Below, one piece after another: positions 9,001 to 59,800 of a stretch of 64,000 bases of DNA. Position 1 is the stretch's first letter. Each line of letters begins with the position of its first letter. The notes under the pieces are model-generated. The model was not told the DNA's origin and ran no database searches. It saw only the letters and a list, made by a program, of their open reading frames with translations. A program made the position numbers and the translations under genes. The DNA comes from Candidatus Hatepunaea meridiana. Lineage in GTDB: Bacteria > Electryoneota > AABM5-125-24 > Hatepunaeales > Hatepunaeaceae. The stretch lies in assembly GCA_030765125.1 (NCBI GenBank), contig JAVCDD010000180.1:7033-71032 (forward strand). The letters are read 5' to 3'.

Positions 9001-12000
9001 TCGGAGACGTCGAGGATTAATAAACCGTTATTCCCATCAGCCACATATGCATAGTTTCCTACAACAGAAACATCCCAAGAATGTTGAGTTCGGTGATTAC
9101 CAACCTCATCAGGATTCTCAGGATCTGAAACATCTATTAAACGTAGACTGCTTTGACCGGCGGGAGTAAAGCATGCAACATAAGCTATGTTACCTACAAC
9201 AGTTAAGTCTCGAGCATAATCACGTGTATCTTGAGATCCAACTTCGACCAATTCATCTGGGTTAGAAATATCAATAATTCTTAGACCTTCTGTATAATCT
9301 GCTACATAAGCATAGTTTTCTATGACTGAAACACCCAGAGCTGCACCTGGAGTATCATATATTCCTAATCCTCCAAGGTTACGAGCATTAATCAATATTA
9401 AACCTGTCTGATTATCTGCAACATAAGCGATCTCATCAACTATCACAACATCCCGTGCGATTTGCGGCGTGTTAAATGAACCGGTTAATCTTGGATCTTC
9501 AGGGTCGGATATGTTAATAGCTTGCAAACCGCTACGTCCATCAGCTATGTAAACATAATCTCCGCTGACCGCAATACCTTCTGCCCAATCAGGAGTATCA
9601 CAGCTTCCTATTTCATCAGGTTCCTCAGGATTAGACACATCAATAATACGGAGACCGCTCTCGTAATCCGCTACAAATGCCAAATTATCCGAAACCACCA
9701 CATCATAGGCATTTCCTGGAGTTTCACAGAAACCTATCTCATCTGGATTCTCTGGATCAGAGATATCTATTATCCGTAGACCCCCTGCATTATCTGCTAA
9801 ATAGGCAATATCCCCGACAATATCTATACCAAATGTTACACCATTAGTATTATAATGCCCCACTTCCGGTATCGCCGGTTCCCTGCCGACTCCCACCAAT
9901 GCAACATCCACTTCCCCATTATCCGGGTCGTCGGAAGTTATGGTCAGTGTCCCCTCGAAGTTGTTCTCGCTGTCCGGTGTGAACCGAACGGGTAGTTCGA
10001 AGGTGGCGTCCGGTTCGACGATCATCTCTTCATCGATATCCTCAAAGATACTGCTGAAGTTGTCGTGTCCGATTGATATATCGGATATGGTCAGGTCGCC
10101 GTCACCGTCGTTGCCGATGGTCAGGATGAGCTCGACGGTCTGGTCGATTACGACCTCGCCGAAGTTCAGCGATTCGGGATCATGCGTGAGGATAGGCGCA
10201 ACGCCCAGTCCGCTTAAGTTCACATCCAATTCTCCATTATCCGGATCATCGGATGTTATGGTCAGCGTTGCCTGCAGGTCTCCGGTCGCGTCAGGTGCAA
10301 AGGTTACGGTCAGTTCATAGGGCTCGTCCGGTTCGATGACGACCTCACCGTCGAAGTCGCTGGTGAAGTAGTCACCCGCGATTGATATGTCGGAAACGGT
10401 CAGAGGCGCGCGTCCCTCGTTGTTATCAATAGTGAGAATCATATCTGTCTCGTGACCGACTACCGTGTTGGGGAAGACAAGCTCTGCCGGTGTTACAGCG
10501 ATAACGGGAGCCGCTTCCTGGAAGAAGTAGAGGGCGCCCATATCGGCGCGCGTGGTGTCGGGGTCTTCGGGAGCGTCGGGATCGGCTGCGTCAACGCAGG
10601 GGCTGTCCTCAGTGATGTAGAAGTCGTTGTTGTCTGTGTCAGCGAAAATGGGATCGGAATCAAGGTTGTCTACTCCAGCGTAACCGCCCTCGATGTCGCA
10701 GTATGCAACGGTCAATCCGTTCGGCATTCCGGCGGGTTGGTTGCCCCAGACGATTGAGTTTCCGATAGTGGCTGAGGCGCCTGCAAAGATATTAATAGCG
10801 CCGACCTCTTCGTTTGCCGTGTTGCCGTAAAGGGTTATAAAGTTCAGATCAGGATTGGCGTTGTTGGTGGCGTAGATACCTCCACCGCGGCTGGTGGAGC
10901 TGTTTCCGTAGATTACCAGATGATCCAGCGTCGGGCTCGCGTCGTTGATATAGAGCCCACCGCCGAAGTCGGTTGAGCCGTTGCGAATGGTGAAGCCTAT
11001 CAGTTCCGCTTCGTCTGTCTCACCGTTGCGGAAGGCGACTACACTACGCCCGTTGTCGCCGCCGTCGATTATGGTTGAGGCTATGTCATCCGGATCGTCG
11101 CTCTCGATATATTGGCTGGCAACCGTGATGTTTTTGCCGCGGAAATTGATGTTCTCATTATAAACACCGGGGTCGACCAGAACGCGGTCGATGTCAATGG
11201 CTTCGTCAATGGCTGCCTGGATGGTCTCGAAGTCATCAGGGACGTTGTATTCGCGGGGCTGTGCTTCGATGCCGGTTCCTGACAGGGCAACAGCAAGCTC
11301 ACCGTTGTCGGGATCGTCTGAGGTGATGGTCATAGTGGCTTCGTGGTCACCGGTCTCGGTGGGGGAGAAAACGACAGACAGGAATGTCTGTCCTACCGGT
11401 TCTATGATTATTTCGTCTGTAAAGTCGCTGCTGAAATAATCCCCTTCAAAGGTTACGTCTGTAATGTACAGGTCTGTATCGCCGGTGTTGCTGATGGTTA
11501 TGACAGACAAGGATGTCCGTCCCACCTCAGTATCAGGGAATCCAATGGCTTCGGGGTCTATGGTGATTTCGGGGTATTCTACGATGCCGCCGGTAACTTC
11601 GGAACAGTTGAAGATGTAAAGCCCTTCATCCTCATCGGTGATATAGGCGTAATTGCCGGATACATACAAGCCGATAGCGTAGCCTGGAGTGTCGTGGAAA
11701 CCAATCTCTTCCGGTTCGGCAGGGTTTGAAACGTCTATCAAGCGCAATCCCTCGTCACCATCGGCAACATAAGCGAAATCATGCGCGACAAAGACGCTTT
11801 CGGATGAGCCGGGAGTGTTTACAAAGCCGACCTCTTCCGGTTCTGCGGGGTTTGATACGTTTATAATGCGAAGTCCACTGCCTGAAGCGGCGACATAAGC
11901 ATAGTCACCGGCTGCGAAAACTCCATAGGCACGACTCGGCATTTCGAGATTGCTCACTTCATCCGGATTTTCCGGGTCGGACACGTCGATTATGCGCAGT

Positions 12001-20078: not shown

Positions 20079-20317
20079 GATTCCTTGATTCCTGTGAATA
20101 GATTTACCAATAGGTGTGAATCAGATTCGCATTTGAAAGGATAAAAACGTGTTCAGTTTAAACTGTTAGAGGATATGCTTTGAGTTACCAGTAGGAAGAA
20201 ATGATAACTTGAAACAGATAATAATAACCTAATAAGATGTGCAAAAACCTTGCCGGTTTATTCTATCACTGCGTTGAAAGGAAGCGTCGGGAAGGGCAGA
20301 CATTCTTGTCCGTCACG

Positions 20318-34377: not shown

Positions 34378-34383
34378 ATTTAT

Positions 34384-34425: not shown

Positions 34426-34616
34426 TGATGCTTTTTCCCTCACTCAAGCGCTATAATTTTTAGATGACATAACCTGAAACGATCTCACCGATCATTTTAC
34501 CATCCCAGTTCACCTCAATAACTCCTCCGACTTCGAAATTGAAGTTGAAATATTTCCAATTAGCTGAACATCATTAATGATTCTGTTGATTAAGTCAACA
34601 ATTTCAGAATTACCCT

Positions 34617-34714: not shown

Positions 34715-34848
34715 AAGTATTTCAACAGGATCATTAATATAAGAGATTAAATATTTGGAATTGGGACATAACTCCTCTTGAAAGTGAAATGGATTTTACT
34801 ATATTAGGATAACTAATTCACATTTCCAAACACAAAAGGAGTTACAAA

Positions 34849-35202
34849 ATGGCGAAAAAACACATAGCCATCTTTTACTGCAAGCGCATTCAAGACCACA
34901 CCTGCATAGCTTGTGCTAAATGTTTCAAAGCTGCCCCCTTGAAAAACGGGAAATTCTCACAATACGATGAAGAAATCGAGATAGTGGCAATGACGGATTG
35001 CGGTGATTGTCCAGGGCTGTTAATGCCTCGAGTTCCGATGATCAGGACTCTGGGAGGACATGTGGACGCTGTTCACCTGGGCACCTGTGTCACTCAGGCA
35101 AAGGAACACGGTGAATGTCCGCTTGATCTTGAAGAAATGAAAGTGAAACTTGAAAAGAAATTGGGGATTCCTGTGATTATCGGGACGCATGATTATGTTT
35201 GA
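34849..35202 (+). CDS. Small Cys-rich protein, probable CGGC-domain (PF08821-type) metal-binding protein
   Basis: A 117-aa ORF with Shine-Dalgarno aaggag at 36-41 of 348xx (34836-34841), 7 nt before the ATG. Cys motifs are CIACAKC, DCGDCPG and LGTC...HGECP. The family assignment is from memory of the CGGC pattern. Confidence 0.5.
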   Translation: MAKKHIAIFYCKRIQDHTCIACAKCFKAAPLKNGKFSQYDEEIEIVAMTDCGDCPGLLMPRVPMIRTLGGHVDAVHLGTCVTQAKEHGECPLDLEEMKVKLEKKLGIPVIIGTHDYV

Positions 35203-35251
35203 TTCACCTCACAGGCAGGGTCGCCTGCGGCTCCTGTATTTCGGCTAACAT

Positions 35252-35372
35252 TGTCGGACAAGAGTGTCCAACCTACTAAAACATCGGTAGGATAGGCATT
35301 CCTGTCTGTCGTACACCTCTTAATTATAGGCATCGTTTGACAGACAAGAATGTCTGTCCTACCCTTCGTGTG
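35252..35372. repeat. REP cluster: one type-2 REP plus an inverted pair of type-1 REPs (REPIN/BIME-like), all with GTAG heads
   Basis: 35252-35276 is tgtcggacaagagtgtccaacctac, the reverse complement of GTAGGTTGGACACTCTTGTCCGACA. 35287-35310 is GTAGGATAGGCATTCCTGTCTGTC. 35349-35372 is gacagacaagaatgtctgtcctac, an inverted copy. Confidence 0.75.
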
Positions 35373-35512
35373 ATTGCTTAAACAAATGGCGGGCAATCCA
35401 CCACCCTCCATCCAGAAGTTTTCGCAGGCAGGGACGTCTACTCTACTGGTGAGGGCACTTGACAGCACAGATGACTTACTATCTAAAGCCAAACGCCCAA
35501 AGCTCAAAGACT

Positions 35513-35553
35513 AAAACAAAAGCCCGTCCGGTTAATACCGGACGGGCTTTTGG
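35513..35553. terminator. Bidirectional rho-independent terminator candidate
   Basis: The hairpin agcccgtccgg-ttaata-ccggacgggct (35521-35548) is flanked by aaaacaaa on one side and ttttggg on the other. Confidence 0.65.
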
Positions 35554-35591
35554 GTTTAATTAATATTGTTGCTTCAGGTGTTAACACCTTT

Positions 35592-35633
35592 GTTTATGTT
35601 GCGTCAGGTGTTAACACCTGACGCAACATAAAC
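35592..35633. terminator. Perfect 42-nt palindrome immediately downstream of the 4817-aa gene stop
   Basis: gtttatgttgcgtcaggtgtt|aacacctgacgcaacataaac. Its 14-nt centre is duplicated at 35576-35589 (aggtgttaacacct). Confidence 0.5.
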
Positions 35634-35640
35634 GCAGTGA

Positions 35641-38600
35641 TTACTTCACCAGCATTACCTTGCGTACGGACTTGAAGTTGGCAGCTTCCATCCGGACAAT
35701 GTAGATACCGGAGGTCATACCAGCTCCATCCCAGACCGCAGTGTAACGACCCGCTTTGAGTTCGTTGTTTATCAGAGTCGTAACCAGACGACCTGTCACA
35801 TCGAACACATTGATCGTAACTTTTGCAGCCTCAGGTAAGCCGTAGTTAATGCGTGTAACCGCATTAAATGGGTTAGGATAGTTCTGAGACAGACTGTACT
35901 CATCCGGTATGCCTGCATCAACCCTGACATCTATTATCGTCAAGGCGTTGGTGAGGTAAACAAGTCCCTTACCAGATTTGATGCTTGCTTTCAGGTTCAC
36001 TTCAGTCTCGTTGGCGTTATTCCACATGCGTAAGGTGAATGCTTCATCTTCCTGCAGACCGTCAACGACGTTTTTAGTGTGTTCAGAATCACCCCAGATA
36101 GGTAATCCACACATTTCGTCGGAAATTGTGCCGACACCTATTAGTTTACCGGAAGCGTCAAAGGCGGCAATCTGATCGCCGTCCTCAACAGGTGTTCCGA
36201 TAATCGAAGTTACCAGTACACTCATGTTGACATCGGTCTTTACAGGGGAAGCCCAGTGGCTGCCAGCTTCGCTTGCAGACATCAGAGCCGCGCCTTGGTC
36301 TTCATCCTCCGGATATAGTAATTCGACATCTTCGTCAACGTTGATCTGGTAACCTTGACCAGGTGTCCACGGTTCCATATTCGAGAAGCCATATGAAGGT
36401 ACCATGAAGCCACCTGGTCCATCTTTGGCAATGATAACATTGTCAACAATAGATGACACAACGTGGAAACCGCTACCGCGTGAAGCTTCCAGATCATAGG
36501 TTGGATAGTAGGCAACTATATTCCAACCTGCATCAACACCTGCAACCACAGTCTGTGGATGGATCGGAACGCCTAACCAAGAGGCTTCGAGTTCTTCGTT
36601 AACGTTCATCAGGTAACCTTCAGCGGTGTTCCAGAAGTCAATACCGTAAAAATCCCAATCCGGGACACAGAAATCACCAGCTTCGTCCTTCATAATAACT
36701 ACGTGGTGGTTATCATCCTCATCCTTGTACTGTTCGAGCATTAGCTCAACATCCGGACCATCATCATCATCGAGATTTTCCCAGTAATCAGCAATTGGAA
36801 TGATGTTCAATGAGATCATGTTCCAGCCTTCGAGATGAAGAATGGTCTGCTCGCGAAGTTGGTAGGCTGTTACACAAGTTACTATCGTTTCACCGTTGTT
36901 AACCCAGACACGCGGACCAGCATTATCTTCTATTTCAGCAGTGGCAAGAAGTTCTTCGTCAGCATCCGGGTCCCAGGCACGATAGTTAATATTATCGCCG
37001 TTTTCGAATCCTTCGACATCATCAGCCGCACCATAAGCGATTAACACAGAGCCTTCGCCACGCCAAACAACACCGCCGGCAAGGACGTCATCGTCAGTGT
37101 ATGCAGCGATTTCCCAACCGTTGGGAACAGGTTCTTCGTCAAATGCGACATCTAAAATGCTCAGATAGTGCATCAGGTTGGTCGTTTCGAATTCAGCGAA
37201 GTGCTGTATACGAGCGCCAAGCTGAAGTTCGACGTCAAAGACTATTTCTGCATTTTCAGGATCGTTAGTAAGGATAGTAACGGTAGCATGATAATCAATC
37301 CAGTCTTCAAGGTCTGCAGGATCAAATGTAAGTATTATCTCTGTCGATTCACCGGCATGTACATCACCTTCATCCGGTTCGGCAGTAACCCAGGTTGAAA
37401 CGTTTGCAAGGTGATCAAGATACCAGATGACAGCTTCGCCTGTTCTTCCCCAATGATAATTAGCTGGGACATTATGCAGATAGCCGTCAACCGTAGTAGA
37501 TACGAGGCAGAAGCCGCGACCGTATTGATAAGTCAGGATGATTGGCTCATTTGTAGGATTACCCATCGCCATTATTTGCACCCATTCGACGTTATCCATA
37601 TTGTCAATGTCCCTCTGGAGAAATACACCATGTGCGCATCCACCGCCGACCAGTCTCTGTCCTTCACCCCATTCCCAGTTAAAGGGATCGTTCTCGTTCA
37701 TATAATTGATGAGGAAGTTCTCTTCAGGGTCCAACTGGAGCGGACACTGATTCTGAGATTGACTACCATTATATACGAGACCACCAGGATTTGTCGGTCT
37801 GGTATTATGATTATTTGTCCCGGAACTGTGATAGAGGGCTCCGCCACCATCAACGAATTCCTCTATACGTTCAAGGTTCTGGTTATATTGAGCTACCCAC
37901 GCATCCGCCTCGTAGTTCCCGATCCACATAAAGTCGTACTCTGTGAAATCAACGTCCTGCACTTGATTCCAGGTGCGATAGCGATCATAATCCAGATCAT
38001 CTATCGCTTGGAAATATCGTTCGAAGTCCCAGTTCGACCAGCCGCAGCGCTCTGCAATCAGAATGCCTCGTCCTTCCGGCTGATCGCGGCGAGGTCCGAT
38101 TGCGCGTTTAGTTGAACGCAGGGAGCGAACAGCGTCATCGCGTTCCTCTTCCTCGATATCTTCGATCTCGATCTCAAAATGCAGGTCACGTCTTTCACCT
38201 TCTTCGTTGGCAAGTACGATGATTTCCTCAACAGGATCGTCACCCATTAGCATCTGAACGATGATTTCGGTTGGGTTATCCGGATCTGTTTCAGGATCGG
38301 TTGATGCGATCGGGGCTAATTCACCTACACCGATCAAATCCCACCAGATTCGGTCATCGTCACCAATATCCTGGTTTTCAGCGTCGGAAAAGATGCTGAA
38401 CGTCGCTTCACGTACTCCAGTCTGACTGGGACTGAAGGTTAATGTGAATGCGAGTTCCTGTTCAGGATCCAGGACCGCCTGGTCATCTATATCCGTGCTG
38501 TAATCGTCGGCAGCATCCCCAGTAAATTCGACACCGTCAATTATAAGATCTGTCGAACCGCAGTTCACGACTGTAATACTTATTTCGGAATCGCCATTTA

Positions 38601-41600
38601 CGTAGGTGTCTTCGAATTCAATATCCTGCGCATTTTCAAACGGTTGCGCTATCGGTTCATATTCCTCATCCCATATAGGAACACCGATAACATCCGCAAT
38701 GACGTTTACAACAAACTCGTCGTTTTCAGGATCGTTGGTAATGAAGATTATATCTGCTTCGTAAGTAAATTCGATCAAACCTTCAGTGTTAAGGGTTACG
38801 AAGACGTCCATATCAGCACCGGGGTCGATGCCACTATCATTTGGACGATCGGGATCCCATGGTGAAGTATCAGGATCAAGTGTGATCCATTTCGCGCCAC
38901 CCATCTCGGTCAGGTATAACAGGAGTTCTGATGCGATAGAGCCCCACTCACCACCGTTACGAGCATAATTGAACCAGCAGTGACCTGTCGAGTGACCGAC
39001 GGTCAGAACAGTACCCTTACCGAAGCCGTAAGCGACAGCGCCAGGTACGTCCTGATTCTGCTTAGTGGCAATAACCTGATACCATTCGAGAGTGCCGTCA
39101 TCTACCTTTTGAACGAACTGGTTTTCAAGGTAACCGGAATGCAGCCATGAGCCGCCTTCAATGAGTTCGCCCTCTTCCCAGTAGTTCGGTTCGGATCTGT
39201 GACAGATCTCGGCAAACAGACTGTAATTGTCATCATTCGGGTCAGGGCTGACAACCAATGTGCCGTTACTGGTTCCTCCGGCTGAATTGTTGACAATATC
39301 GCCGGGACCATGCATGGGGCTGTTGGCGTCAGCAGTTTCATAGTAACATGCGCCACCGTCCGCAACATACTCTTCCAGCCGCTCAAAGTTGTTCTGGTAA
39401 TTCTGGCTGTTCATTGTACTGCGAGCAGCTATTACGATGACGTCATAATCTTCGAATTCAACGTTATCCCAGTCGGCGGCTTGACGATAGGAATGATAGT
39501 TATCGTTGTTCAGGAGCGGATCCCTACGCATACCATCGTCCACCCAGCCCCATGTGGTGCTGGTCTGGAAGGCGGCAAACAACAGTCCGTCGAGTTCGTC
39601 ATCTTCGAGTGGGTCGCGACGCGCCCCAACCGAACCGACTGCATTCAGAGTACGAGCGTTGTTATCACGCTCAGGCTCGCTAATGATTTCGATCTCGGTT
39701 TCGAAATGGAGTTGAGCGCCGTCGTCCCCGGCTTCGTTGGCGACATTCAGGTTATGGATTTCTTCCTGACCGTTGGGAACCTCGGTATCAATCGACTGAG
39801 GTGCGACGGAGAACATTGGCGGTGAAAACGCTTGAGCTACTAAACTCACTGCATATTCCGCGTCGTCTTCGTCGTTATTGAATATAATCAGATCCGGGGT
39901 GAACTCACCGGTTTCACCAGGCATAAAGGTTAAGGTGACAACCTCTTCCTCTCCCGGACCGATTACGAAATCAGCATGATCAACCTCAAAGAATTCATGA
40001 TCAATCTCGCAACCTTCTATTTCAAGATCTTCGGTGCCGACGTTTTGAACGACTATTTCAAGGTCGTAATCGCCGTCAGCATATAATATTTCAGGCCAGA
40101 AGTGATCCTCTGATTCACTATAAGCTGCATTCCAGTCAACGATGCCATGATCGTCCGGATCATCCGGAATGTAGCCCCATTCTTCGGGCCAGATAACATT
40201 GATACCGGGAGCTCCAGATACGTGAATAAGGATATTTACAACTGCATCCTGATTAGCCGGATCGTTGCTTAAGAAATGGAGATTGACTTCGTATTCACCA
40301 CTATATAGACCGAATGTATTAATTGTGATGAATATATCCATTTCTTCATCAGCTCCAAGTCCATCTTCCGGGGATTCCTTTGGATCATACGAGAACCATC
40401 TGACTTCATCAACACCGTCATCGTAAACACGGATGTTTGCCTGCTGGTAGCCACTGCACCAGATATACTCACCGTCATGACCAACCGCACAATAAGGCTG
40501 ACCATTGTTGACTTGGAAGCTTACTACATCGTCTACCTCAACGCATGTCCAATCATCCCTGTCAACGCCAATCTGGTATACGTTGTTTTGGGCGGCATCA
40601 GTCATCCAGAGAGGAGCATCGACATGCGCCGGTACCCACTCAAGGGCAAAAGTAACGACATTGCCGTGGAATGCCTGATGATTGGCAATCACACCGATTT
40701 CCTCACCCACATCGAGACCGTCCACCTCATAGACGTGGATGGAATTAGGAGCGGCATTTTGCATTACGAATATAAGGCTTTCCTCAACGTCAGCCGCGAG
40801 ACCGTAAGCGACGAACGGGAAATTATGAGTTCCAACCAACTGACCATCGCCGTCATATCGACGTACCTGTGCATTTGACCAGTTACCTATCCATAGGTGA
40901 CCGTTAAGCCAGCATCCGTCCATGCAGCTACCGCCTGTGGCGATGCTAATTTCTTCATTGAAATTCTCATAATTAGCGTCATGGGAATAAGCCGCGGCAC
41001 GTTGATTATTGTAGTTAGACACCCACATGCGCTCGTTATCCCAGTCCCAACCAACGCAGGAGCTGTAATGGTTCACGACATTAATACCGTTGAACTGGGC
41101 AATCAGGTCGCCCGGCTCGTCGCGACGCGGACCGGTAGCGCTCCTGGTGCTGCGCAGAGTGCGTGAAGCATTATCACGCTCTTCTTCAGGACCTTCCTGA
41201 ATCATTTCAGCTTCAGTAGTGAAGTGAAGGTCTGCTCTACCTATGTTGGCAACGTTAATAGTCAGCTCTTCCTCGTCGCCGGTGTCCATTTCACGTTCAA
41301 TCTCTCCAGGATCAAGGGAGATCATGGGTGGATCTTGACAGTCTGCGCTTAAATCGAATATGAACTCTTCCAGATCCGGGTCGTTTGTGGATAAGGTAAC
41401 GGTTCCGATGTATTCACCCGCTTCTTCAGCCATGAAGCTGACGGTAATTATACCCTCTTGCGCAGCGATGATGGCGTTATCATCAACGAAGTCTGCAGGA
41501 TCAACGAAGAAGACTTCCACGTCGCCTTCGGTGTCCACGATGATTTCGTCAATAATCAGATCGTCCGTACCTACGTTAATGATAGTTACCGGAATCTGAT

Positions 41601-44600
41601 AGCGGTCATCAGCGCCGCCGTTGAACAGGTTCGGGTTGAATTCTACGTTGAAGTCAACTACACTGTTGGGAATATCATCAGGATCAAAGCCCGGACCCCA
41701 CTCTATAGCGAAGTCAGGAACACCTGTAACGTCAAGATTGACCGTTACGGTTACATTACGATGAGCAGGATCATTGGTTGTGAAGTACATTTCAGCAACG
41801 TACATACCACCAATCAAGCCATCAGCATTGAGGAGGACAATGATTTCCTCTATGTCATCCGCTTCAACTGTGCCTTCTTTGACCATTTCTTCTTCGCCTA
41901 CTCCGTAATCCAGCCATCTGACTTCGGAGACGCCGTCGTCGTAACAATAGAGCCTCGAGTCAGCATGACACGACACGTAGAGGTTTTCACCATCATGTGC
42001 GATCACTGCGTACTCGTTGTTGCTCCTCGTCGGGAAGTTGACGACCGCCTGGTTGCCCACGAACTCAAAATTATCGGTGTCAATATCGATCTGCCAGGCA
42101 CGGTCGCGGGTGTTAACCCACAGCTCGCCGTCCGGGTGCAACGCCACGAATTCAATGGAGCGGAACAGCTGGTTGTTCACAAAGGGCTGGATGTTGCCGA
42201 TTTGACCAATCCGTTCCCCTTCGAGGTTGAAGACACTCAGGTTGAATGGAGCGCCTGAACCCTCGACCGCGTAAATTAATCCTTCTTCCTGGTCTGTGGC
42301 AACGCCGTTGATGCCGCGGTGCCCCTGCAATGCAAGAGCGCCGAGGTTGTTACCCTCGATATCATAGCGGTTCAACGTGGGCACCCACAAATACATTATA
42401 TAGATCACTCCGTCGTAGTATGCCAGATCCATCGGGTTAAGTCCGGTGTTGAATCGTACCATTTCCTCACCATCCGAGGGATCAATGGCAGCCATCAGGT
42501 ACGGATTATTGTACTGCTGGAACCAGAACCACTCGTTGTCCGGGTCATAGCAGCCGTTTTTGTATTGATTGGCGGGAATCGGATGGTTGAAATCGAGGTC
42601 TTCGAGTCTATCACCGGGATTGTCACGGCGAGGACTGGTAACACTCTTTGTACTGCGCAGGGTGCGCGAGGCGTTGTCACGTTCCTCTTCATCACCCGGT
42701 TGGCGGATGATTTCGGCTTCAAGCCGCCATCTCAGCAAAGCGTCACCGGCATTGTAGATCTCCATAGCATGCTCTGCTTGCTCACCCGTAACGAGATCAT
42801 CGTTGATGACAGCGTCTTCATTATCGATATCAATTTGATCACCGTCAACCGAGAGCTCAAAGACCGGTGGAAGCGAGGCTTCTGCGTGCAGATTTACTAT
42901 GAGTTCATCCTCATCGGGATCGTTAGAGATGAATACCAACTCTGCTTCAAAATCATTCGGGTCGTCCACGTCGGCGTCAAAGGTAATCGTAACTACTACA
43001 TCCTCACCATCTTCCCATTCCAGAAAAGCCTCCTGTGGTTCAACGCTGAAGTAATCGTGATCACAGAAGATGTCTTCAACGTCGAGGTCAGCGGTTCCAA
43101 GGTTGGCAAGTATAACCGTCATTTCATAAGGACCGCCTGTAAACAGGTCCTCATACATTAGATTCCAGTCGACGACAGACTCATTGTTCTGATCCTCTAT
43201 CGGATCAATATAACCGTAGGCTTCATCCCATGTAACTTCAATGTCCGGAGCGCCGGTAACGTGTAACAACACGTTAACCGCTTCATCAGGACTTGCGGGA
43301 TCGTTGGAAAGGAAGTGTATATCAGCTTCCCAATCACCTTCAATCAAGCCGGCGGCGTCAAGGAATACGGTAACTGTCATCTCGTCGTCGCCTTCAACAG
43401 CGCCTTCGGCGGGATCAACGGAGACCCATCGCGTCCAGGCGCCTGCAGGACCGCAGCCGATGGCGCGACCCTCAACTATATAGTCTTGACCCTGTCCATA
43501 GTTGACCATACTGAAGCCGTACATGTTGTTATCAATGAAGGCACCGTTAATGCCGGTATGACTGGCTTGCCACCAACGAGGTATGTCATTTATACGATCA
43601 CCATACTGGAATGTGATCATTCCAGCATCATTCAGGATAATCTGGAAACAACCGCCGATACCACCACGAGAATTCCAATTGTGGTAAGTAATGACCATCA
43701 AATCTCTCTCGTTGGTCCATGTATATAATGGTCCACCGCCACCGGAACCGTGCCAGTCACCGTTTAGAATGGCGAGGGTATAGAACCACCCCGCTTGATT
43801 CTGCGGGAACGGACGAGGTGTGTTGATGCTTTGTGCCGAGCGGACGAATCCCGCCCAGCCATCAGTATCGATAAAGATCCGGTTGAAGTTCTCTACGTAG
43901 AACGGGAAGTCCCAACCAAGTTCGACAGCGCCAGTAATCGCATCATCACCCATAACGAACTCACGAACGCCTTCGAACTCCCGGATATCGATCCATTCAT
44001 ACTCAGGACCGTCATCCTCAAGATTATCACGCCACTCGTAGCCCATATCATCGGGGCCACCGCGACGGTCGCGACGGGGACCATCAGCGCGACGGGTGCT
44101 TCGCAGGGTGCGCGAGGCATTATCACGATCGTCGCCAGGCTCTACAATGATTTCAATATCAGTAGTGAATCGCAGCTCTGCATCGCCACTATTTTCAACA
44201 ACTAAGTCATGCTCTTCGAAGCCACCGGTGAAGAGATCGGTCTCGATTGAACCGGGAACGATACGGATAATCGGGGGCAACTCACAGATAACATGCATAG
44301 GAAGTTCAAAGTTTTCCTCATCCGGATCGTCACAGACGAAGGTCATTACTTCCTCATATTCACCCGGATCATCTGCTTCAGCTTCAAATGTTATGGTTAA
44401 ATTAGCGCTTGCGTCCGGTTCGAGAAGCATATCACCCTGATCAACGGTGAAGTATTCGTTATCACAGAAGATATCCTCGATGTCAAGGTCGGCAGTTCCT
44501 TCGTTGGAAACTTGGACGACCATTGTATAGGGACCGCCAGCGAAGACGTCTTCATAAGCAGGATTCCAGTTGAGAACATCGGGATAACCGAAGTCTTCAG

Positions 44601-47600
44601 ACCATTCGACTTCGATGTCCGACGCGGCGGTGAGATGAAGCTGGATATTTATCACCACTCCTTCTTCCTCATTGGGATCGTTGGAAAGGAAGGTCAGATC
44701 AGCTTCGTAATCACCCTCAGCTAAACCAGCGCCGTCAAGTGTAACGGTAACGATCATTGCATCGTCACCTGCAACGGTTCCTTCGACAGGATCGTACGCC
44801 AGCCAGTTTGTTTCAGCGATACCGTCATCGACGATCTGGAATTCCTGTACGACCCGGACGCCGAGCCAGAGGTTTTCACCGTCATGACCGGGGTCACTCC
44901 ACTGGTCGTTGCCGTTATTCCAGGCGGTGTTCTGGACTACTTCAACAAACGACCAATCATCTGTGTCAATCGAGACCTCCATAAGGCGGCTCTGAGTATT
45001 TATCCAGAGCTGACCGTCGGGATGCTCGTCAACCCAGCAGATGCCGCGGCTGAACTGGTTAACAAGAGGACCCTGTCGCCAGTTGATCGTGGCGACACGT
45101 TCCACATTATCGTTAACCGGTCTGACTACGTGCATTCCCCAGGCGCCTGTGCCTTCTATAGCGATAAGCACACCGTTCTCGGGGGAAGCAGCCAGGGCTG
45201 TAACCGAATTGAAGCCCATTGGCAGGTTGCCAAGGTTTTCTCCCTCAGCGTCATGCCTGCCGACAAAGGCGCCCGACCAGGCGACATTGTAGACAACGCC
45301 GTCCATCCAGGCAATGTCCATCACGTTTTGACCCTGGGGTTGATAGGCAATTTCCTCAGTGAAGTTTTCGTAATCACCGTCCCATGATATTGCGGCGATC
45401 CAGTTTGGACTGTAAGTAGCTACCCACATCCATTCGTTGTCAGTGTCGAAATTGGAAGAGTGCTTGTAACCGGCAGCTCCACGAGCCCACCTGTAGGTTG
45501 CTATCACGTCCATGAAATCATCACGACGCGGTCCTTCGGCATTCCTTGTGCTGCGCAGTGAGCGAGCGTTTGCATCGCGATCCGGTTCTGCGACAATCTC
45601 ATGCTCGACAGTGAAGCGCAGATCGGCTTCGCCTTCGTTGGCTACCGTTAGTTCAACATCGACAAGACCACCGGTATACAGATCTTCTTCGATAGAACCG
45701 GGATTAATAGCAATTTCCGGAGGCACGCCTGCATCAGCCAGCAGCGCTATTTCAAAATCCTCTTCATTTGGATCGTTCCAGACGATTACCATCGCCTCTT
45801 CAAACGCATCCCCGCTTGAAGCATCGAACGTAAATGTAAATTCATCGCTCTCGCCGGGTTCTAATGAAGCATCCACCGGATCTGATGTGAAGAGATCGTT
45901 TTCACAGTAGATATCTTCAATTTCCAGATCGTCTGTGCCTGTGTTTTCGATTTCAACGAGAACATCATACGTTTGGTCAACGAAAAGATTAAGATAAGCG
46001 AGATTCCAATCTATTACCGCTACTTCCGGATCTTCATCCCAGCCAATATCCGCAGACCATGTAGCTCCAAGCGCAGGCGCTCCGGTTACGTGCATTATTA
46101 TGTTAAATACTAATTCTTCATTGTCGGGATCGTTGGTAGTGAAAGTCATATCAGCTTCATAGTCACCAGTGAATAAACCTGAGCAATCAAGCGTAACGGT
46201 AACTTCTGCCTGATCGTCAGCTTCAATGGTTCCTTCATCCGGTTCATAAGCGAGCCACTTTGCGCCACCCATCTCGGTCAGGTATAACAGGATTTCAGAG
46301 GCCATGGAGCCCCACTCACCACCGTTACGAGCGTAATTGAACCAGCAGTGACCTGTCGGGTGACCGACGGTCAGAACAGTACCCTTACCGAAGCCGTAAG
46401 CGACAGCGCCAGGTACGTCCTGATTCTGCTTAGTGGCAATAACCTGGTACCATTCAAGAGTGCCGTCCTCTACCTTTTGAACGAACTGGTTTTCAAGGTA
46501 ACCGGAATGCAGCCATGAGCCGCCTTCAATGATTTCGCCCTCTTCCCAGTAGTTCGGTTCGGATCTGTGACAGATCTCGGCAAACAGACTGTAGTTGTCA
46601 TCATTCGGGTCAGGGCTGACAACCAATGTGCCGTTACTGGTTCCTCCGGCTGAATTGTTGACAATATCTCCGGGACCATGCATGGGGCTGTTGGCGTCAG
46701 CAGTTTCATAGTAACATGCGCCACCACCGTCAACATACTCTTCCAATCTTTCAAAGTTGTTCTGGTAATTCTGGCTGTTCATTGAACTGCGAGCAGCTAC
46801 TACGATGACATCATACTCGCTGAAGTCAACATTGTCCCAGTCGCCTGCTTGACGATAGGAATGATAGTTGTCGTTGTTCAGGAGCGGATCCTGACGCATA
46901 CCATCGTCCACCCAGCCCCATGTGCTGTTGATCTGGAAGGCGGCAAACAACAATCCGTCGAGTTCGTTATCTTCGAGTGGGTCACGACGGGGACCATCAG
47001 CGCGACGTGCTGTACTGCGCAGGGTGCGCGAGGCATTATCGCGATCGTCATCACCCGGTTCAGCGATGATCTCAGACGCAATACTCCAATTCAGATCCGC
47101 TCCACCGGTGTTGGAAAGTGTCAACACGTGTTCTTCAATGTCGCCGGTGAAGTAATCTTCCTCAACTGAACCGGGAGCTAACTCAAATGCAGGAGGTGTG
47201 AATGCCTGCGCAACAAGATTTATTTCAATATCCGCAGGCTCATCAGCCGGATCATTCCAAACGATTACCATAACCGCTTCGTGTTGATCCGTATCCTCGG
47301 AATTGAAGATAAAGTTAACTTCAAGGCTCGAATGTCCAATAATCACTGCATCGGCAGGATCACAGGTGAAGCGTTGGTTCTCACAGGTGATACTTTCTAT
47401 TTCGGTGTCGTCTGTTCCCGGATTAATCAATTCGATTGTGACGGGGTAGTCGTGCCCTGCATAAAGTTCTTCATGAGCGGCGTTAAAATCGACTACAGAA
47501 TCACCATTATCCGGATCGAAGCCGTGATCCTCAGACCATGCAACCTCAAGGGCAGGCACGCCTGTTACGTGCATTATAACACTAATTACGACTTCATCAT

Positions 47601-56610: not shown

Positions 56611-56660
56611 GTAGGACAGACATTCCTATCTGTCGGTAGGTTGGACACTCCTGTCCGACA
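56611..56660 (+). repeat. Two tandem REPs with GTAG heads (type 1 then type 2)
   Basis: GTAGGACAGACATTCCTATCTGTC (56611-56634) is followed by GTAGGTTGGACACTCCTGTCCGACA (56636-56660). Confidence 0.8.
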
Positions 56661-56884: not shown

Positions 56885-59800
56885 ATGTCCAAAAAAACCA
56901 TTCTTTTATTAGCATTTATAATCTTTTTAACATTAACCCTTTTCAATCAGGGGTATACAACCACCCGCCCAACGGGATTGTCAACCGGATCAAACGAATT
57001 CGCTCAAATCTTATCCCAATCCGGTACGGATCTACATATAAGATTCACACCACCGGCATCGCATAAACGGCTTCTTGATGAAATCACAGCATCGCAAAAT
57101 CAGAACATCACGAATCTTGCCTACACCTATTGGTTGGTCGTTCCGCCAATGGATCATGTTGAACTCGAAATAGTTGAGCAGAATGGACGGCGGTTGTCAA
57201 TCTCGGACAGGGATGCACCTGATCCGTACATAGATAGAGAAGATGTAAAAATTCAGACAGACAAGTATTATCCTCCAGCTCCTGTAATAATGGGCAAACC
57301 GCAGATTATGCGCGGTATCAGGATGGTTCCGATAACAGTTTTTCCAATACAGTTACTACAGGAATCATCACAGGCAGGGACGCCTGTGTCACCCGATGGT
57401 ATACAGAAATCACAGCATCACAACATCACAACATCACAACATCAAATTGCTGTTGAAAACAGTCAGATTGAAATAAAACTCAATTTCACTAATGACGAAG
57501 CAATAAATCCTTTATTGAATTCTGCCCCTCGACAGATGTCGCACAGCTTTGCCAATATAATCAATTCCTACACACTCAATCCCCCACCCCACTTGATCCC
57601 TCGACGGGATCTGGCAGCGACGGAACTCGCCAAATCGCTGATCCTGTACCCTCAAGTCTTTGATGATAACGAGGATGCCGCGGAAGCTATGATATGGCTC
57701 AATCATCTGGTTCATTGGAAGCGCCGACAGGGTTACTATGTTGAATTGGCAGCAGTTGAAGTCGACCGTGAAAACGAAGATAACAGCGATGATATAAAGG
57801 ACTTGATCGGTGACTACTATGAGGATGGTTTTGAGTTTGTAACCTTGATTGGCAACGAAGATTACGATGAGCTTAATACCGTTGAAGGAAACAATACCGA
57901 ACTCTATTTTCCATCCTGGATGTTTATCATCCGCGTTGTTCAGGATACTCTCGGGAATGACGTTATCATCCGGGGTTATCGCGAGCACGAGTATTCGCTG
58001 CTCGAAGGTGACGACGAGATGCCTGACATTATCATCAGCCGTATCAAAGTTCCCACTTACGACAGGCTTGTCGGTGCGCTCCGGAAAACTATCGCATATC
58101 AAATTGACCCGTATCTGGATAATGATAATGACTGGTATTCACATTCTCTGGTTACGATTGAAGAAGACTCGATTGGCATTATTGTCCTTTCCCCTGAATA
58201 TTTATCGCTGGCATATTGGGAACAAGCTCGGCTCACACAAAAAGGATATAATGATATTGATGTTATCCTCGGTCCTGTAGGATCATTTGAAGATGGCGTT
58301 TACGTTGGAGATGACATTAAAGAAGTACTTGAAGAAGGCGTTTCATTAGCATTAGGAGAGGGCTGGCTGTATGATTGTGTTGCACATCGTAACTGGGAAC
58401 AATGGGAAGATTACGCTGAAACCGGAAGGATGCACCCATTTGTCATCGCTAATCTATCCTATTACGAGCAACAGGTAATGTATCCGTTCTATGCTTCCGG
58501 AACTTCAGACAACCTGAATGGTCCTATCGCGGGATTGGGCATCTACGATACAGGAGGACGCTCAGTATATATGACTCATATAATCGGAAGCGCGCTTATG
58601 GCGATGACAATGAACGATGTTTATACACCCGGACATCTTCAGATTATTACAAAGATGTATCTGTCAGGTCTCATTGACAGTGTAAGAATCTACGAAGAGG
58701 ACCCGGAAGAAGCTTATATTAGCGGGATTATCACAGCCTTACGCCTCCATTGGACATTAGGAGATCCGACGGTTGACGTCTTTTCAGAATTTCCCGTTCA
58801 GATAACCGTTGATCATCCCGAATCATATCTAATTGGTGAAACATCAATAATACTAAATGTAATAGATGATAATGATAATAACGTTGCCGATGCTAACGTT
58901 TGCATTTATCAGGAAGATGGCATTCATTATGTAACCCAAACAAACGATGCAGGTATGGTAGTCTTCACCATCCCAGGAGATGGGCTCGAAGAAGGTGAAC
59001 TACTGATAACCGCCAGCAAACACAACTGCATACCATATCTTCCTCCCGATCCTGTACCTGTGAGAACGGGTAATATTAATCTTGTGCTTGAAGATGCTGG
59101 TTTCGACGATGAAGACAACGGCGACGATAATGATGATCACTTTCGGAACGGCGAAGAGGTCGTGCTGATTCTTACGCTGACTAACACCGGCGATCAGGAT
59201 GCGGAAGGCGTCTCTGCAACTCTTAGCTGCGACAGCGAATGGCTCAGTTTCTCACGGGAAGGAATTGAATTCGGGGATATAGATTCGGATGAAACGACTA
59301 CCTATCAAGGTGATCAGGTTATAATGACCCTTGATATGGACTGCCCTGATCGTTCTCTTCTACGAATCCAGGCAGACATTAATATTGATGAGGAAACAAT
59401 TACATCCGTTGCTTTTGAAATCACTACCTACGGACCGAAGCTCTTTACCGCACCACATCTGATTGATGTTGACGAGGGTTTTGTTGGGGGCGGAGAGAAT
59501 GCTTCTTTTTCACCGACTATTCAAAATCTGGGCAGGACAGGAATATCAACATTCACTGCTGAATTAGTAAGTCTCAACGAACTTATCACCGTTACTGAAG
59601 CTGAACGTAACTATGGTGCTATTGAGCCTTGGCTGGATCCTGAAGAGGATCCAGACGAACAATCGCCGAATGAACCGTTCATTATTGATTTTGACGAACT
59701 TTTCGTAGCTGGAAATGAAGCACGATTCGAACTGCGAATATCTGCTGAGGATGACTATGATACAACAATGATAATCTCCAAGTTCGTTCCCAGTCGTGAA

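What the first reader, a model, noticed from the sequence alone, without database searches (positions are those of the whole stretch)
35203..35640. REPIN/BIME-like cluster with GTAG heads between the CGGC gene and the 4817-aa gene
Three REPs of two sequence types lie within 120 bp (35252-35372), including an inverted pair separated by 38 bp, which is REPIN geometry. The spacer also holds two CAGGCAGGG(A/T)CG hairpin units (35210-35229, 35423-35439) and two terminator-like palindromes.

The GTAG head is the recognition feature of RAYT-mobilised REPs in Proteobacteria. Finding the same grammar in a T9SS-bearing lineage is noteworthy. No RAYT gene is in the window.
Basis: partly seen in the sequence, partly recalled or inferred. 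Interest (0 to 1): 0.55.

Follow-up and report, generated by a model that had tools for sequence, protein, structure and literature searches.

The report
REP hairpin cluster between two genes
The spacer holds five copies of a 24-base hairpin repeat (REP) that, in many other bacterial phyla, flanks a small domesticated transposase (RAYT), so it is an ordinary member of a known class of selfish DNA, here seen in a candidate phylum.

Summary
Window 35210-35446 holds five 24-nt units, each a GT[A/G]G head, an 8-bp stem and a 4-nt loop. They are of three sequence types. A bidirectional terminator and a 21-bp perfect palindrome follow. The two 'CAGGCAGGG' units are decayed REPs of a third type.

The same family recurs in the window at least 13 times in about 5 kb of intergenic DNA. 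It also occurs five times inside giant genes.

A truncated scan of species-representative genomes found exact matches in about 90 genomes of at least 12 phyla.

A roughly 150-aa Y1 transposase sits next to these units. It meets NCBIfam 'REP-associated tyrosine transposase', and its best solved relative is E. coli TnpA-REP. In 43 of 80 metagenome loci a perfect unit lies within 300 bp of the gene, and in 31 on both sides, mostly as inverted pairs. This is the REPtron arrangement.

The source is Candidatus Hatepunaea meridiana (Electryoneota, FCB group). No RAYT lies in the window, and the rest of that genome could not be searched.

REP/RAYT systems are already described in Bacteroidetes, Planctomycetes and other phyla, so this is a new member of a known kind.

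One thing is unexplained. Four REP 24-mers replace exactly eight codons, in frame and without a length change, in a 6,901-aa adhesin gene.

The parts
35210..35233 (-). Type C REP remnant, GAGCCGCAGGCGACCCTGCCTGTG (head decayed from GT[A/G]G to GAGC)
Evidence: 20 of 24 identical to GTGGCACAGGCGTCCCTGCCTGTG, the unit that flanks a RAYT in L198. All 8 stem positions pair, counting G.T. Folds at -5.9 kcal/mol, z -3.3.
35253..35276 (-). Type B REP, GTAGGTTGGACACTCTTGTCCGAC
   Evidence: R1 model 33.9 bits, E 1e-6. Folds ....((((((((....)))))))) at -5.3 kcal/mol. The identical 24-mer flanks the RAYT of a Spirosoma MAG on both sides (L032).
35287..35310 (+). Type A REP variant, GTAGGATAGGCATTCCTGTCTGTC
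   Evidence: R1 31.0 bits, E 6e-6. 8 of 8 stem pairs, two of them G.T. Forms a tail-to-tail pair with the type B unit, 10 nt apart.
35339..35362 (-). Type A REP, GTAGGACAGACATTCTTGTCTGTC (family consensus)
   Evidence: R1 40.9 bits, E 1.3e-8. -7.5 kcal/mol, z -5.6. It is the second most common exact variant in other phyla (14 of 145 matches).
35286..35363 (.). Inverted REP doublet with GTAG heads outside and a 28-nt spacer (REPIN-like geometry)
   Evidence: Inverted repeat I1, 25-nt arms, 88% complementary. As one strand it folds at -17.6 kcal/mol, z -5.8. The same geometry dominates in other genomes: 34 of 50 adjacent pairs, gaps mostly 20-65 nt.
35423..35446 (-). Decayed type C REP, GTAGAGTAGACGTCCCTGCCTGCG
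Evidence: 19 of 24 to the type C consensus. GTAG head intact, stem 6 of 8. R1 9.5 bits. No stable fold.
35517..35552 (.). Bidirectional intrinsic terminator (16-bp stem, 10 G-C pairs, 4-nt loop)
   Evidence: Called on both strands. The minus-strand tail is TTTTAGTCTT (preceded by the stem's own TTTTG); the plus-strand tail GGTTTAATTA is weaker. -22 kcal/mol, z -8.1. It lies between the REP block and the giant gene, so the REPs would sit in the 3' UTR of the CGGC transcript only (inference).
35567..35633 (.). Palindrome block: 21-bp perfect palindrome at 35592-35633 plus a partial copy at 35567-35589
   Evidence: I2, I3, D2; -25.8 kcal/mol, z -9.5. It starts 8 nt after the stop codon of the 4817-aa gene. 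It is not repeated elsewhere in the window. It is not a member of the REP family.
34849..35202 (+). Upstream flanking gene, CGGC-domain protein (117 aa)
   Evidence: Pfam PF08821, E 4e-24. Its stop codon ends 7 nt before the first REP remnant.
35641..50094 (-). Convergent flanking gene, 4817-aa T9SS-sorted surface protein
   Evidence: ORF list. Its C-terminal region matches T9SS sorting-domain proteins.
56611..56659 (+). Second cluster: type A (56611-56634) and type B (56636-56659) in tandem, 1 nt apart
   Evidence: 30.0 and 33.9 bits. It begins 49 nt after the stop of the 1830-aa gene, upstream of a terminator-like hairpin.
50422..50445 (+). Type D REP, GTAGATGCGACACTCCTGTCGCAT
   Evidence: R1 28.9 bits, E 2.4e-5. 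Perfect 8-bp stem. Lies in a divergent spacer.
20291..20314 (+). Type A remnant with head GAAG, GAAGGGCAGACATTCTTGTCCGTC
   Evidence: 3 mismatches to type A. Lies 4 nt beyond the 3' end of the ORF at 20318-20704 (-).
62327..62439 (.). Inverted pair of a further GTAG-headed type (E): GTAGCGCAGCTTGCTGCG, 6-bp stem
   Evidence: R1 13.5 bits for each arm. Sequence. Lies in a convergent spacer.
6783..6806 (-). Intragenic type A REP, in frame, encodes VGQTFLSV in the giant ORF 3-19904 (-)
   Evidence: R1 41 bits. It replaces 8 codons without a length change relative to 20 paralogous domain repeats.
11373..11396 (-). Intragenic type A REP, identical 24-mer, at the same position of another domain repeat
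   Evidence: 41 bits.
11502..11525 (-). Intragenic REP, GTGGGACGGACATCCTTGTCTGTC, encodes VGRTSLSV
   Evidence: R1 30.6 bits. It replaces 8 codons of the first strand of the same domain repeat.
5271..5294 (-). Intragenic type-C-like hairpin, GAAGGGCAGGCGTCTCTGCCTGTT, encodes EGQASLPV
   Evidence: Same domain position as 6783 and 11373. All 8 stem positions pair, counting G.T.
57369..57392 (-). Intragenic type C REP, GTGACACAGGCGTCCCTGCCTGTG, antisense in the 1804-aa gene
   Evidence: 1 mismatch to the type C consensus. R1 21.9 bits. The sense strand reads SSQAGTPVS in a low-complexity stretch.

Best explanation
The spacer is a BIME-like cluster of repetitive extragenic palindromes (REPs).

**The unit.** Each is 24 nt: a 5' GT[A/G]G foot, an 8-bp stem and a 4-nt loop (usually YTCY).

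**The enzyme.** The units belong to a family that is the cognate substrate of one clade of REP-associated tyrosine transposases (RAYT, also called TnpA-REP). These are HUH/Y1 enzymes of about 150 aa.

**Inferred mechanism, by analogy with E. coli TnpA-REP.**
1. On single-stranded DNA the unit folds into a hairpin.
2. A RAYT encoded elsewhere in the genome binds the hairpin, reads the GTAG foot, and cuts and rejoins the strand.
3. Units spread in trans and pile up where they do little harm, mainly just downstream of genes.

**This locus.** Five units of three types (C, B, A, A, C') have accumulated between the stop codon of the CGGC gene and a bidirectional terminator. Two of the five are already decaying. 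They would be transcribed only as the 3' UTR of the CGGC mRNA, where the hairpins may incidentally slow 3' exonucleases.

**What is shown:**
- the anatomy of the units;
- that the family is repeated in the window and across phyla;
- that the family is physically linked to RAYT genes in other genomes.

**What is inferred:**
- that a RAYT exists and is active in this genome;
- the cleavage chemistry;
- any effect on mRNA.
For: **1. Anatomy and significance.**
- The three core units score 31-41 bits (E 6e-6 or lower) with a covariance model built only from units of other genomes.
- No matches occurred in shuffled controls.
- The units fold as predicted.

**2. Family size.**
- At least 13 intergenic units lie in about 5.0 kb of intergenic DNA in the window.
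By my count from the titles these come from about 90 genomes in at least 12 phyla.
- The expectation by chance is about 2.

**3. Stem variants.** Variants keep pairing through double changes at all 8 pairs. This set was pre-selected for pairing, so only the diversity is informative.

**4. RAYT linkage.**
- Y1_Tnp genes abut the units in L020, L032 and L076.
- NCBIfam NF047646 'REP-associated tyrosine transposase' is met above its cut-off by three of four proteins tested.
- The best solved relative is 4ER8, TnpA-REP.
- Of 80 metagenome loci fetched by the protein alone, 43 have a perfect unit within 300 bp and 31 have one on both sides.
- In 19 of those 31 the nearest units are inverted, plus-strand upstream and minus-strand downstream.
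- Unit density is 2.52 per kb near the gene, 0.052 per kb more than 600 bp away, and 0.006 per kb in shuffled sequence.

**5. Co-variation of enzyme and unit.** The closest RAYTs carry GxCAGACA-TTCY stems. More distant ones carry CACAGGCA, CACAGGCT or CACAGGCG types.

**6. Catalytic and recognition residues.**
- Invariant D-H-x-H, W-x-x-E-S-x-D-R-I (the Q after the W is near-invariant), and the catalytic Tyr with a nearby Asn (Y127 and N131 of the Y-M-x-x-N-P motif, whose P is not invariant) in 26 sequences.
- The D and R at the E. coli E100/H101 positions match those reported for GTAG-reading subclasses 2.5 and 2.7 (PMC6006769).

**7. Position.** Units lie 3' of genes in convergent or co-directional spacers. 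This is as described for REPs in PMC3733652.
Against: - No RAYT is in the 64-kb window.
- Genome-wide copy number in this organism is therefore extrapolated, not counted.
- Two of the five units are degenerate. That also fits a family no longer being renewed.
- Nobody has shown cleavage or transposition for this RAYT clade. The mechanism rests on E. coli work (PMC3479197, PMC8266576).
- Four intragenic copies replace 8 codons with no length change. Simple insertion does not predict this.
Confidence: 0.8

Rival explanations
1. Fossil family. The units were spread by a RAYT that this lineage has since lost, as in many E. coli strains. They now persist only by drift or by host use.
For: - No RAYT is in the window.
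- Several units are decayed: 35210, 35423 and 20291.
- REPtron loss is documented in E. coli strains (PMC3733652).
Against: - Several copies are identical to the cross-phylum consensus: 35339, 6783 and 11373, at 40.9-41 bits.
- Two intragenic copies are 24 of 24 identical to each other while their flanks differ, which suggests recent origin.
- RAYT contigs are usually about 1 kb long. They would be missed by binning, so absence from a MAG would be weak evidence.
Confidence: 0.25
2. Host-function elements. The hairpins are kept mainly because they act as RNA 3' stabilisers, terminators or protein-binding sites (as with BIME, gyrase and IHF in E. coli). The transposase link would be secondary.
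For: - Units lie 3' of genes in convergent or co-directional spacers.
- G.T pairs occur on the GTAG strand. Di Nocera et al. take this as a hint of RNA function (PMC3733652).
- The 24-mer is nearly constant across phyla.
Against: - In this spacer four of five units are antisense to the only transcript likely to cross them. In that orientation the G.T pairs become C.A mismatches.
- Strong canonical terminators are present anyway.
- No flanks are conserved and no spacer motif is conserved.
- Enrichment next to RAYT genes is about 50-fold.
- This reading is not exclusive of the main explanation.
Confidence: 0.2
3. The units are ends or miniature derivatives of an IS200/IS605-type insertion sequence or another MITE, not REPs.
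For: RAYTs and IS200 TnpA share the Y1 fold, and both use subterminal hairpins. There are weak secondary NCBIfam hits to transpos_IS200, at 21-30 bits against a cut-off of 55.
Against: - The associated proteins meet the RAYT model, not the IS200 model.
- No TnpB gene and no longer element surrounds the units, and the repeat is exactly 24 nt with random flanks.
- No other protein family recurs next to the units in 116 loci.
Confidence: 0.03
4. Chance palindromes or an assembly artefact.
For: None beyond the fact that all data come from metagenome assemblies.
Against: - No matches in shuffles.
- E down to 1e-8 with an independent model.
- Three independent assemblies are 100% identical across the spacer.
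- Units are shorter than assembly k-mers.
Confidence: 0.01

Closest known systems
E. coli REP/BIME and TnpA-REP (RAYT; PDB 4ER8; Quentin subclass 2.2, Bertels group 2)
   Same: - A 5' GTAG foot directly at the base of a short hairpin.
- Units in alternating orientation, of more than one type, clustered 3' of genes.
- A small HUH/Y1 enzyme flanked by its own units (REPtron).
- 4ER8 is the best solved match to the clade profile, E 4.5e-11.
   Different: - Units here are shorter and simpler: an uninterrupted 8-bp stem and a 4-nt loop.
- There are no conserved inter-REP linker motifs.
- The enzyme has D-R where E. coli has E100-H101.
- Only about 20-25% of residues are identical in the HMMER alignment.
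- Binding of IHF or gyrase is unknown.
Pseudomonas/Xanthomonas REPIN-RAYT systems (Quentin subclass 2.5, Bertels group 3) and subclass 2.7
   Same: - RAYT length of about 150 aa.
- DH-x-H, WQ and Y-x-x-x-NP signatures, with D and R at the GTAG-reading positions (PMC6006769).
- Short REPs with a GT[AG]G foot.
- Inverted doublets with the foot outside.
   Different: - Those systems are described as largely lineage-specific (Proteobacteria, or Cyanobacteria plus a few others). This clade and its 24-mer are shared by at least 12 phyla.
- Whether the doublet rather than the single unit is what replicates here is not shown.
- The assignment to 2.5 or 2.7 rests on motifs only, not on a tree.
GTAG-tagged REP families of Rhodopirellula baltica, Opitutus terrae and Thermomicrobium roseum (Di Nocera et al. 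2013, PMC3733652)
   Same: - Non-proteobacterial GTAG or GTGG-headed hairpins with 6-9 bp stems.
- Several families per genome.
- Head-to-head dimers.
- Repeat-specific REPtrons.
- REPs inside genes.
   Different: - The consensus sequences are only in that paper's figure, so identity of families could not be checked.
- Bacteroidetes and FCB lineages were reported there only for CGTC repeats.
- The intragenic REPs there are inserts that add residues. Here they are length-neutral.

Membership tests
GTAG-tagged REP (repetitive extragenic palindrome) | Unpaired 5' GTAG (GT[AG]G) tetranucleotide directly at the foot of the stem | tested here: met
   35253, 35287, 35339 and 35423 carry GTAG; 35210 has decayed to GAGC. 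Across 87 distinct units G1, T2 and G4 are invariant.
GTAG-tagged REP (repetitive extragenic palindrome) | Short (20-40 nt) imperfect palindrome that folds into a stem-loop | tested here: met
   24 nt, with an 8-bp stem and a 4-nt loop. The three core units fold at -2.1 to -7.5 kcal/mol, and the 35210 remnant at -5.9.
GTAG-tagged REP (repetitive extragenic palindrome) | High copy number in the genome (typically more than 100) | tested here: inconclusive
   At least 13 intergenic and 5 intragenic units lie in 64 kb. This density would give hundreds per genome, but only this window of the genome was available.
GTAG-tagged REP (repetitive extragenic palindrome) | Mostly extragenic, downstream of genes, in convergent or co-directional spacers | tested here: met
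   The clusters at 35210-35446 and 62327-62439 are in convergent spacers. Those at 56611-56659 and 20291 are just 3' of a gene. One unit (50422) is in a divergent spacer.
REPIN (REP doublet forming hairpin; Bertels and Rainey) | Two REPs in inverted orientation separated by a short spacer | tested here: met
   35286-35310 and 35339-35363 with a 28-nt spacer. Folds at -17.6 kcal/mol.
REPIN (REP doublet forming hairpin; Bertels and Rainey) | The doublet as a whole, spacer included, is the repeated unit, and doublets outnumber singlets | tested here: inconclusive
   The spacer is not repeated elsewhere in the window. In other genomes 96 of 189 units lie within 100 bp of another, with 34 inverted pairs at variable gaps of 6-74 nt. 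Genome-wide counts for this organism were not possible.
REPIN (REP doublet forming hairpin; Bertels and Rainey) | A cognate RAYT, usually single copy, in the same genome | not testable with these tools
   None in the window.
BIME (bacterial interspersed mosaic element, E. coli sense) | REPs of different types in alternating orientation | tested here: met
   The order is C(-), B(-), A(+), A(-), C'(-). B/A and A/A alternate, but the outer units do not.
BIME (bacterial interspersed mosaic element, E. coli sense) | Conserved linker motifs between REPs; binding of IHF, gyrase or Pol I | tested here: not met
   No linker sequence recurs between clusters in the window. Protein binding is not testable. 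Hence 'BIME-like', not a BIME.
RAYT / TnpA-REP (the enzyme found next to this REP family in other genomes) | HUH motif and catalytic Tyr in a Y-x-x-x-N-P context; curated family model | tested here: met
   D-H-V-H and Y-M-x-x-N-P; of these D66, H67, H69, Y127, M128 and N131 are invariant in 26 sequences. NF047646 scores 93.7, 81.8 and 83.8 bits against a cut-off of 80, and one protein scores 71.9, below the cut-off. Pfam Y1_Tnp hit. Best PDB match 4ER8.
RAYT / TnpA-REP (the enzyme found next to this REP family in other genomes) | Gene flanked by its cognate REPs (REPtron) | tested here: met
   43 of 80 loci have a perfect unit within 300 bp, and 31 have one on both sides. Enrichment is about 50-fold over DNA more than 600 bp away. 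L076 and L032 are flanked on both sides.
Intrinsic (Rho-independent) terminator | G+C-rich stem-loop followed by a T run | tested here: met
   35552-35517 on the minus strand has 16 pairs, 10 of them G-C, and the tail TTTTAGTCTT. The plus-strand tail is weaker.

The most novel reading that the evidence does not exclude
This 24-nt REP family and its RAYT clade form one pan-bacterial system kept almost unchanged in at least 12 phyla. Its units can also overwrite exactly eight codons in frame. Four such cases sit at domain-equivalent beta-strand positions of a 6,901-aa adhesin, with no length change, and none occurs in 149 homologous giant proteins. If this reflects a real replacement-type route, REPs would be a source of coding variation in repeat-domain surface proteins, not just extragenic passengers. 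Candidate routes are RAYT-linked strand exchange, or insertion followed by microhomology-mediated deletion at the shared CTGTC end.
Probability: 0.15. Interest if true: 0.65.

Novelty: new member of a known kind. Interest (0 to 1): 0.33.

Why it matters
- It extends a documented class of domesticated-transposase/REP systems to the candidate phylum Electryoneota.
- It shows that one REP sequence family with its RAYT clade is shared by many poorly studied phyla: Acidobacteriota, Planctomycetota, Bacteroidota, Zixibacteria, KSB1, Eremiobacterota and others.
- Practical consequence: these 24-mers and their clusters break short-read assemblies. Two other assemblies of this population end inside this spacer, and most RAYT contigs are about 1 kb. 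They also generate spurious ORFs with peptides such as VGQTFLSV or DRQECLSY in MAG annotations.
- The covariance model built here could mask or count them.
- The in-frame, length-neutral copies in a giant adhesin are the only part that could change how REP spread is understood.

Tried and rejected
- **Rfam.** A search of 34200-35700 at permissive E-values gave only sub-threshold hairpin look-alikes (Thr leader at 46.8 bits against a gathering score of 55, plant miRNAs). No family fits.
- **Neighbouring ORFs.** I clustered all ORFs of 116 REP-bearing loci to look for any recurrent neighbour. Nothing was found in more than 8 loci (response regulators, ABC ATPases). The RAYT trio surfaced as a small cluster.
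- **Literature.** Searches for the 12-mers found only unrelated primers.
- **Reaching the rest of the source genome.**
  - The CGGC protein gave three short contigs, all 100% identical to the window.
  - The last gene gave a 2.3-kb contig.
  - The NCBI MAG protein P0121 is not in the contig index.
  - None of the 80 metagenome RAYT loci comes from the same samples.
- **Viral vectors.** Only 6 of 2.9 million viral contigs hold the pattern, so phage carriage is not a general explanation for the cross-phylum spread.
- **Apparent intragenic units in other genomes.** 35 of 145 fell inside stop-free stretches. On inspection these were stretches of high-GC DNA or regions upstream of true starts, not real coding insertions.
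- **Conserved flanks or a target site.** None was found.
- **VGQTFLSV as an ordinary motif of the Ig-like domain.** It is absent from the 149 other best homologues.
Full report
**What is in the spacer**

The 438-nt spacer lies between two convergent genes. One is a CGGC-domain gene at 34849-35202 (+), Pfam PF08821. The other is a 4817-aa T9SS-type gene at 35641-50094 (-).

The spacer contains three clear 24-nt units:
- 35253-35276 (-): GTAGGTTGGACACTCTTGTCCGAC, type B.
- 35287-35310 (+): GTAGGATAGGCATTCCTGTCTGTC, type A variant.
- 35339-35362 (-): GTAGGACAGACATTCTTGTCTGTC, type A.

Each unit is a GTAG foot, an 8-bp stem and a 4-nt loop. Folding as single-stranded DNA agrees with this.

The last two units form an inverted doublet with the feet outside.

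This became clear only after related loci were in hand.
- In minus-strand register, 35210-35233 is 20 of 24 identical to GTGGCACAGGCGTCCCTGCCTGTG.
- 35423-35446 is 19 of 24 identical to the same sequence.
- That sequence is the unit flanking a RAYT gene in locus L198.

Downstream lie two structures:
- a 16-bp-stem bidirectional terminator at 35517-35552;
- a 21-bp perfect palindrome at 35592-35633, next to the giant gene's stop codon.

Neither is repeated elsewhere, and neither belongs to the REP family.

**More than chance, and not only here**

The type A and B patterns had no matches in shuffled windows.

I built a covariance model (R1) from 87 distinct units taken only from other genomes. 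I ran it over the window with filters off.
- It recovered the three core units at 31-41 bits.
- It also found a tandem A+B pair at 56611-56659, a type D unit at 50422-50445, and weaker hits to a type E inverted pair at 62327-62439.
- A GAAG-headed remnant lies at 20291-20314.

By my tally the window has about 5.0 kb of intergenic DNA (ORF map). It carries at least 13 such units. Most lie just 3' of genes, in convergent or co-directional spacers.

**Source organism**

A window protein is 100% identical to a protein of the MAG 'Candidatus Hatepunaea meridiana'. This organism belongs to phylum Candidatus Electryoneota in the FCB group. It was described from Ace Lake, Antarctica (PMC9324843).

Three other assemblies are 100% identical across the spacer. 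Two of them end inside it.

**Related sequences elsewhere**

I scanned one genome per species with an exact degenerate pattern (39 bits, about 2 matches expected by chance).

By my count from the record titles these come from about 90 different genomes. They include:
- Planctomycetota and Acidobacteriota;
- Bacteroidota and Ignavibacteria;
- Chloroflexota, Zixibacteria, KSB1 and Calditrichaeota;
- Sumerlaeales and Xenobia (Eremiobacterota);
- Spirochaetia, Verrucomicrobiota and Kiritimatiellia.

The 145 matches are dominated by GTAGGACAGACATTCCTGTCTGTC, with 43 copies. Variants keep the stem paired.

All eight pairs show double (compensatory) changes among 87 distinct units. There is a caveat: I pre-selected units that pair fully. 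The 100% pairing is therefore by construction, and only the diversity of stems is informative.

No flanking bases are conserved, so the repeat is exactly the 24-mer.

**The link to a transposase**

I clustered all ORFs of the 116 loci. A small cluster of roughly 150-200-aa proteins directly abuts the units in three MAGs:
- L020, a Chitinophagaceae MAG;
- L032, a Spirosoma MAG, flanked on both sides by the window's exact type B 24-mer;
- L076, a Xenobia MAG, with inverted units 23 nt and 49 nt from the gene ends.

Evidence that these proteins are RAYTs:
- They hit Pfam Y1_Tnp.
- Three of the four proteins tested (the L076 and L032 RAYTs and a further ORF from the Zixibacteria locus L022) pass NCBIfam NF047646 'REP-associated tyrosine transposase'; the L020 protein scores 71.9 bits, just below the cut-off of 80.
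- The best solved relative of the clade profile is E. coli TnpA-REP, 4ER8.

A database search with the L076 protein found 547 relatives at E of 1e-10 or lower. Most are about 150 aa. JGI names them 'REP element-mobilizing transposase RayT'. The NCBI names span Acidobacteriota, Ignavibacteriota, Planctomycetota and Bacteroidota, at 55-70% identity.

The independent test was a metagenome scan with the protein alignment alone, which returned 80 loci.
- 43 have a perfect GT[AG]G-8-4-8 unit within 300 bp of the gene.
- 31 have one on both sides.
- In 19 of those 31 the nearest units are inverted, plus-strand upstream and minus-strand downstream.
- Density is 2.52 units per kb near the gene, 0.052 per kb more than 600 bp away, and 0.006 per kb in shuffled DNA.

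The unit type tracks enzyme similarity. The closest RAYTs have GxCAGACA-TTCY stems. More distant ones have CACAGGCA, CACAGGCT or CACAGGCG types. This is the REPtron arrangement.

The 26-sequence alignment keeps these motifs:
- D-H-V-H;
- W-Q-D-E-S-x-D-R-I;
- Y-M-x-x-N-P.

The D and R correspond to E. coli E100 and H101. Quentin et al. report the same substitutions for the GT[AG]G-reading subclasses 2.5 and 2.7 (PMC6006769). That subclass assignment rests on motifs only.

**How it most likely works**

The mechanism is inferred from E. coli TnpA-REP work (PMC3479197, PMC8266576).
1. The unit folds on single-stranded DNA.
2. The RAYT binds the hairpin and reads the GTAG foot.
3. It cleaves and rejoins the strand, spreading units in trans.
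4. Units accumulate and decay in tolerant places.

In this spacer the REP block lies between the CGGC stop codon and the bidirectional terminator. It would therefore be part of the CGGC 3' UTR only. Any stabilising effect on that mRNA is speculation.

Inverted doublets with feet outside and gaps of 20-65 nt are the commonest arrangement in other genomes: 34 of 50 adjacent pairs. The window's doublet fits that geometry. I could not show that the doublet, rather than the single unit, is what replicates.

**What could not be tested**

No RAYT is in the window. I could not search the rest of the genome.

RAYT contigs are typically about 1 kb long. A MAG would often miss the gene even if the organism has it.

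**Comparison with what is known**

- GTAG-tagged REPs, their dimers, REPtrons and intragenic REPs are described for Proteobacteria, Cyanobacteria, Chloroflexi, Planctomycetes and Verrucomicrobia (PMC3733652).
- TnpA-REP subclasses with REPs are described for Bacteroidetes and 'various phyla', with a patchy distribution attributed to horizontal transfer (PMC6006769).
- The kind is therefore known, and a T9SS-bearing host is not in itself surprising.
- I did not find in the searchable literature this particular 24-mer family, or its near-identity across a dozen phyla. The published consensus sequences are in figures I cannot read, so I do not claim it as new.

**An unexplained side observation**

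The window's giant ORF at 3-19904 (-) is part of a 6,901-aa protein, P0241. It contains four REP-like 24-mers in frame:
- 6783-6806 and 11373-11396, which are identical and encode VGQTFLSV;
- 11502-11525, encoding VGRTSLSV;
- 5271-5294, type-C-like, encoding EGQASLPV.

I aligned 21 paralogous Ig-like repeats of about 105 aa. The 24-mers occupy exactly the eight codons that read DDSYELTV, GNTYEVTV and similar in the other repeats. Those native codons match the REP at only 3-12 of 24 bases. There is no length change.

Three of the four sit at the same strand position. None of the other 149 best giant homologues contains such peptides.

One possible route is insertion followed by a 24-nt deletion between the CTGTC that ends the REP and the ACTGTC that ends the native strand in some repeats. 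This is my inference only.

A fifth intragenic unit, type C, lies at 57369-57392. It is antisense in the 1804-aa gene, within a low-complexity stretch.

**Verdict**

The finding is a genuine REP cluster of a RAYT-associated family. It is a new member of a known kind, in a candidate phylum. Interest is moderate to low, with one side observation worth a follow-up.

Noticed in passing
window 5271-5294, 6783-6806, 11373-11396, 11502-11525 (all minus strand, inside ORF 3-19904): Four REP-type 24-mers lie in frame in a 6,901-aa adhesin gene. Each replaces exactly 8 codons of an Ig-like domain repeat with no length change, and three are at the same strand position. Such peptides are absent from 149 homologous giant proteins. 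The mechanism is unexplained.
   Followed up: partly
window 57369-57392 (-), inside the 1804-aa gene 56819-62233 (+): A type C REP (GTGACACAGGCGTCCCTGCCTGTG, 1 mismatch to the RAYT-flanking consensus) lies antisense within the coding region. The sense strand reads SSQAGTPVS in a low-complexity stretch near the N-terminus.
   Followed up: partly
window 2511-2604 (inside the giant ORF, in frame) and 23857-23948; single copies near 20064-20080 and 34367: Inverted pairs of AAATAGGGGGACAGTATACCTATTTC, about 40 nt apart. The core GGGGACAG fits the GGGGWSAS motif reported for inverted repeats that flank TIRYT / subclass 2.1 tyrosine transposases. One copy is translated as a linker of the giant protein.
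   Followed up: no
window 34626-34705; half copies near 50651 and 50927: An inverted doublet of GTCATTCCCGCGAAGGCGGGAATCCAG, a different hairpin repeat. It produces the spurious peptides VIPAKAGIQ and SFPRRRESR.
   Followed up: no
window 50150-50240, 50670-50750, 20720-20800: Another inverted-repeat family, roughly CAGAGTGCGCGCTTCAGCGCG paired with its complement, found in three spacers.
   Followed up: no
window 62327-62439: A further GTAG-headed family (GTAGCGCAGCTTGCTGCG, 6-bp stem, 2-nt loop) forms an inverted pair, with a degenerate third copy, in a convergent spacer.
   Followed up: partly
window 1823-1850 and linkers of the giant ORF (aa about 5700-6300): Linkers between domains of the giant protein contain tandem heptamer DNA repeats (TCAACATTCAA-type, read as FNIQHS...) and other small repeat-derived stretches. 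The gene seems to tolerate small repeats in frame.
   Followed up: no
L117 (ends at window 35623) and L118 (ends at window 35407): Independent short-read assemblies of the same population break inside this spacer. Most RAYT-bearing contigs elsewhere are about 1 kb. REP clusters and REPtrons fragment assemblies and are likely to be under-represented in MAGs.
   Followed up: partly
L022 2042-3378 (Zixibacteria MAG): A 201-aa protein that passes the RAYT model lies about 600 bp from three GTAG units, with an unrelated 168-aa ORF in between. This is not a classical REPtron.
   Followed up: no
L200-L205 (IMG/VR): Only 6 of 2.9 million viral contigs contain the REP pattern. One of them (L200) has three copies.
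   Followed up: no
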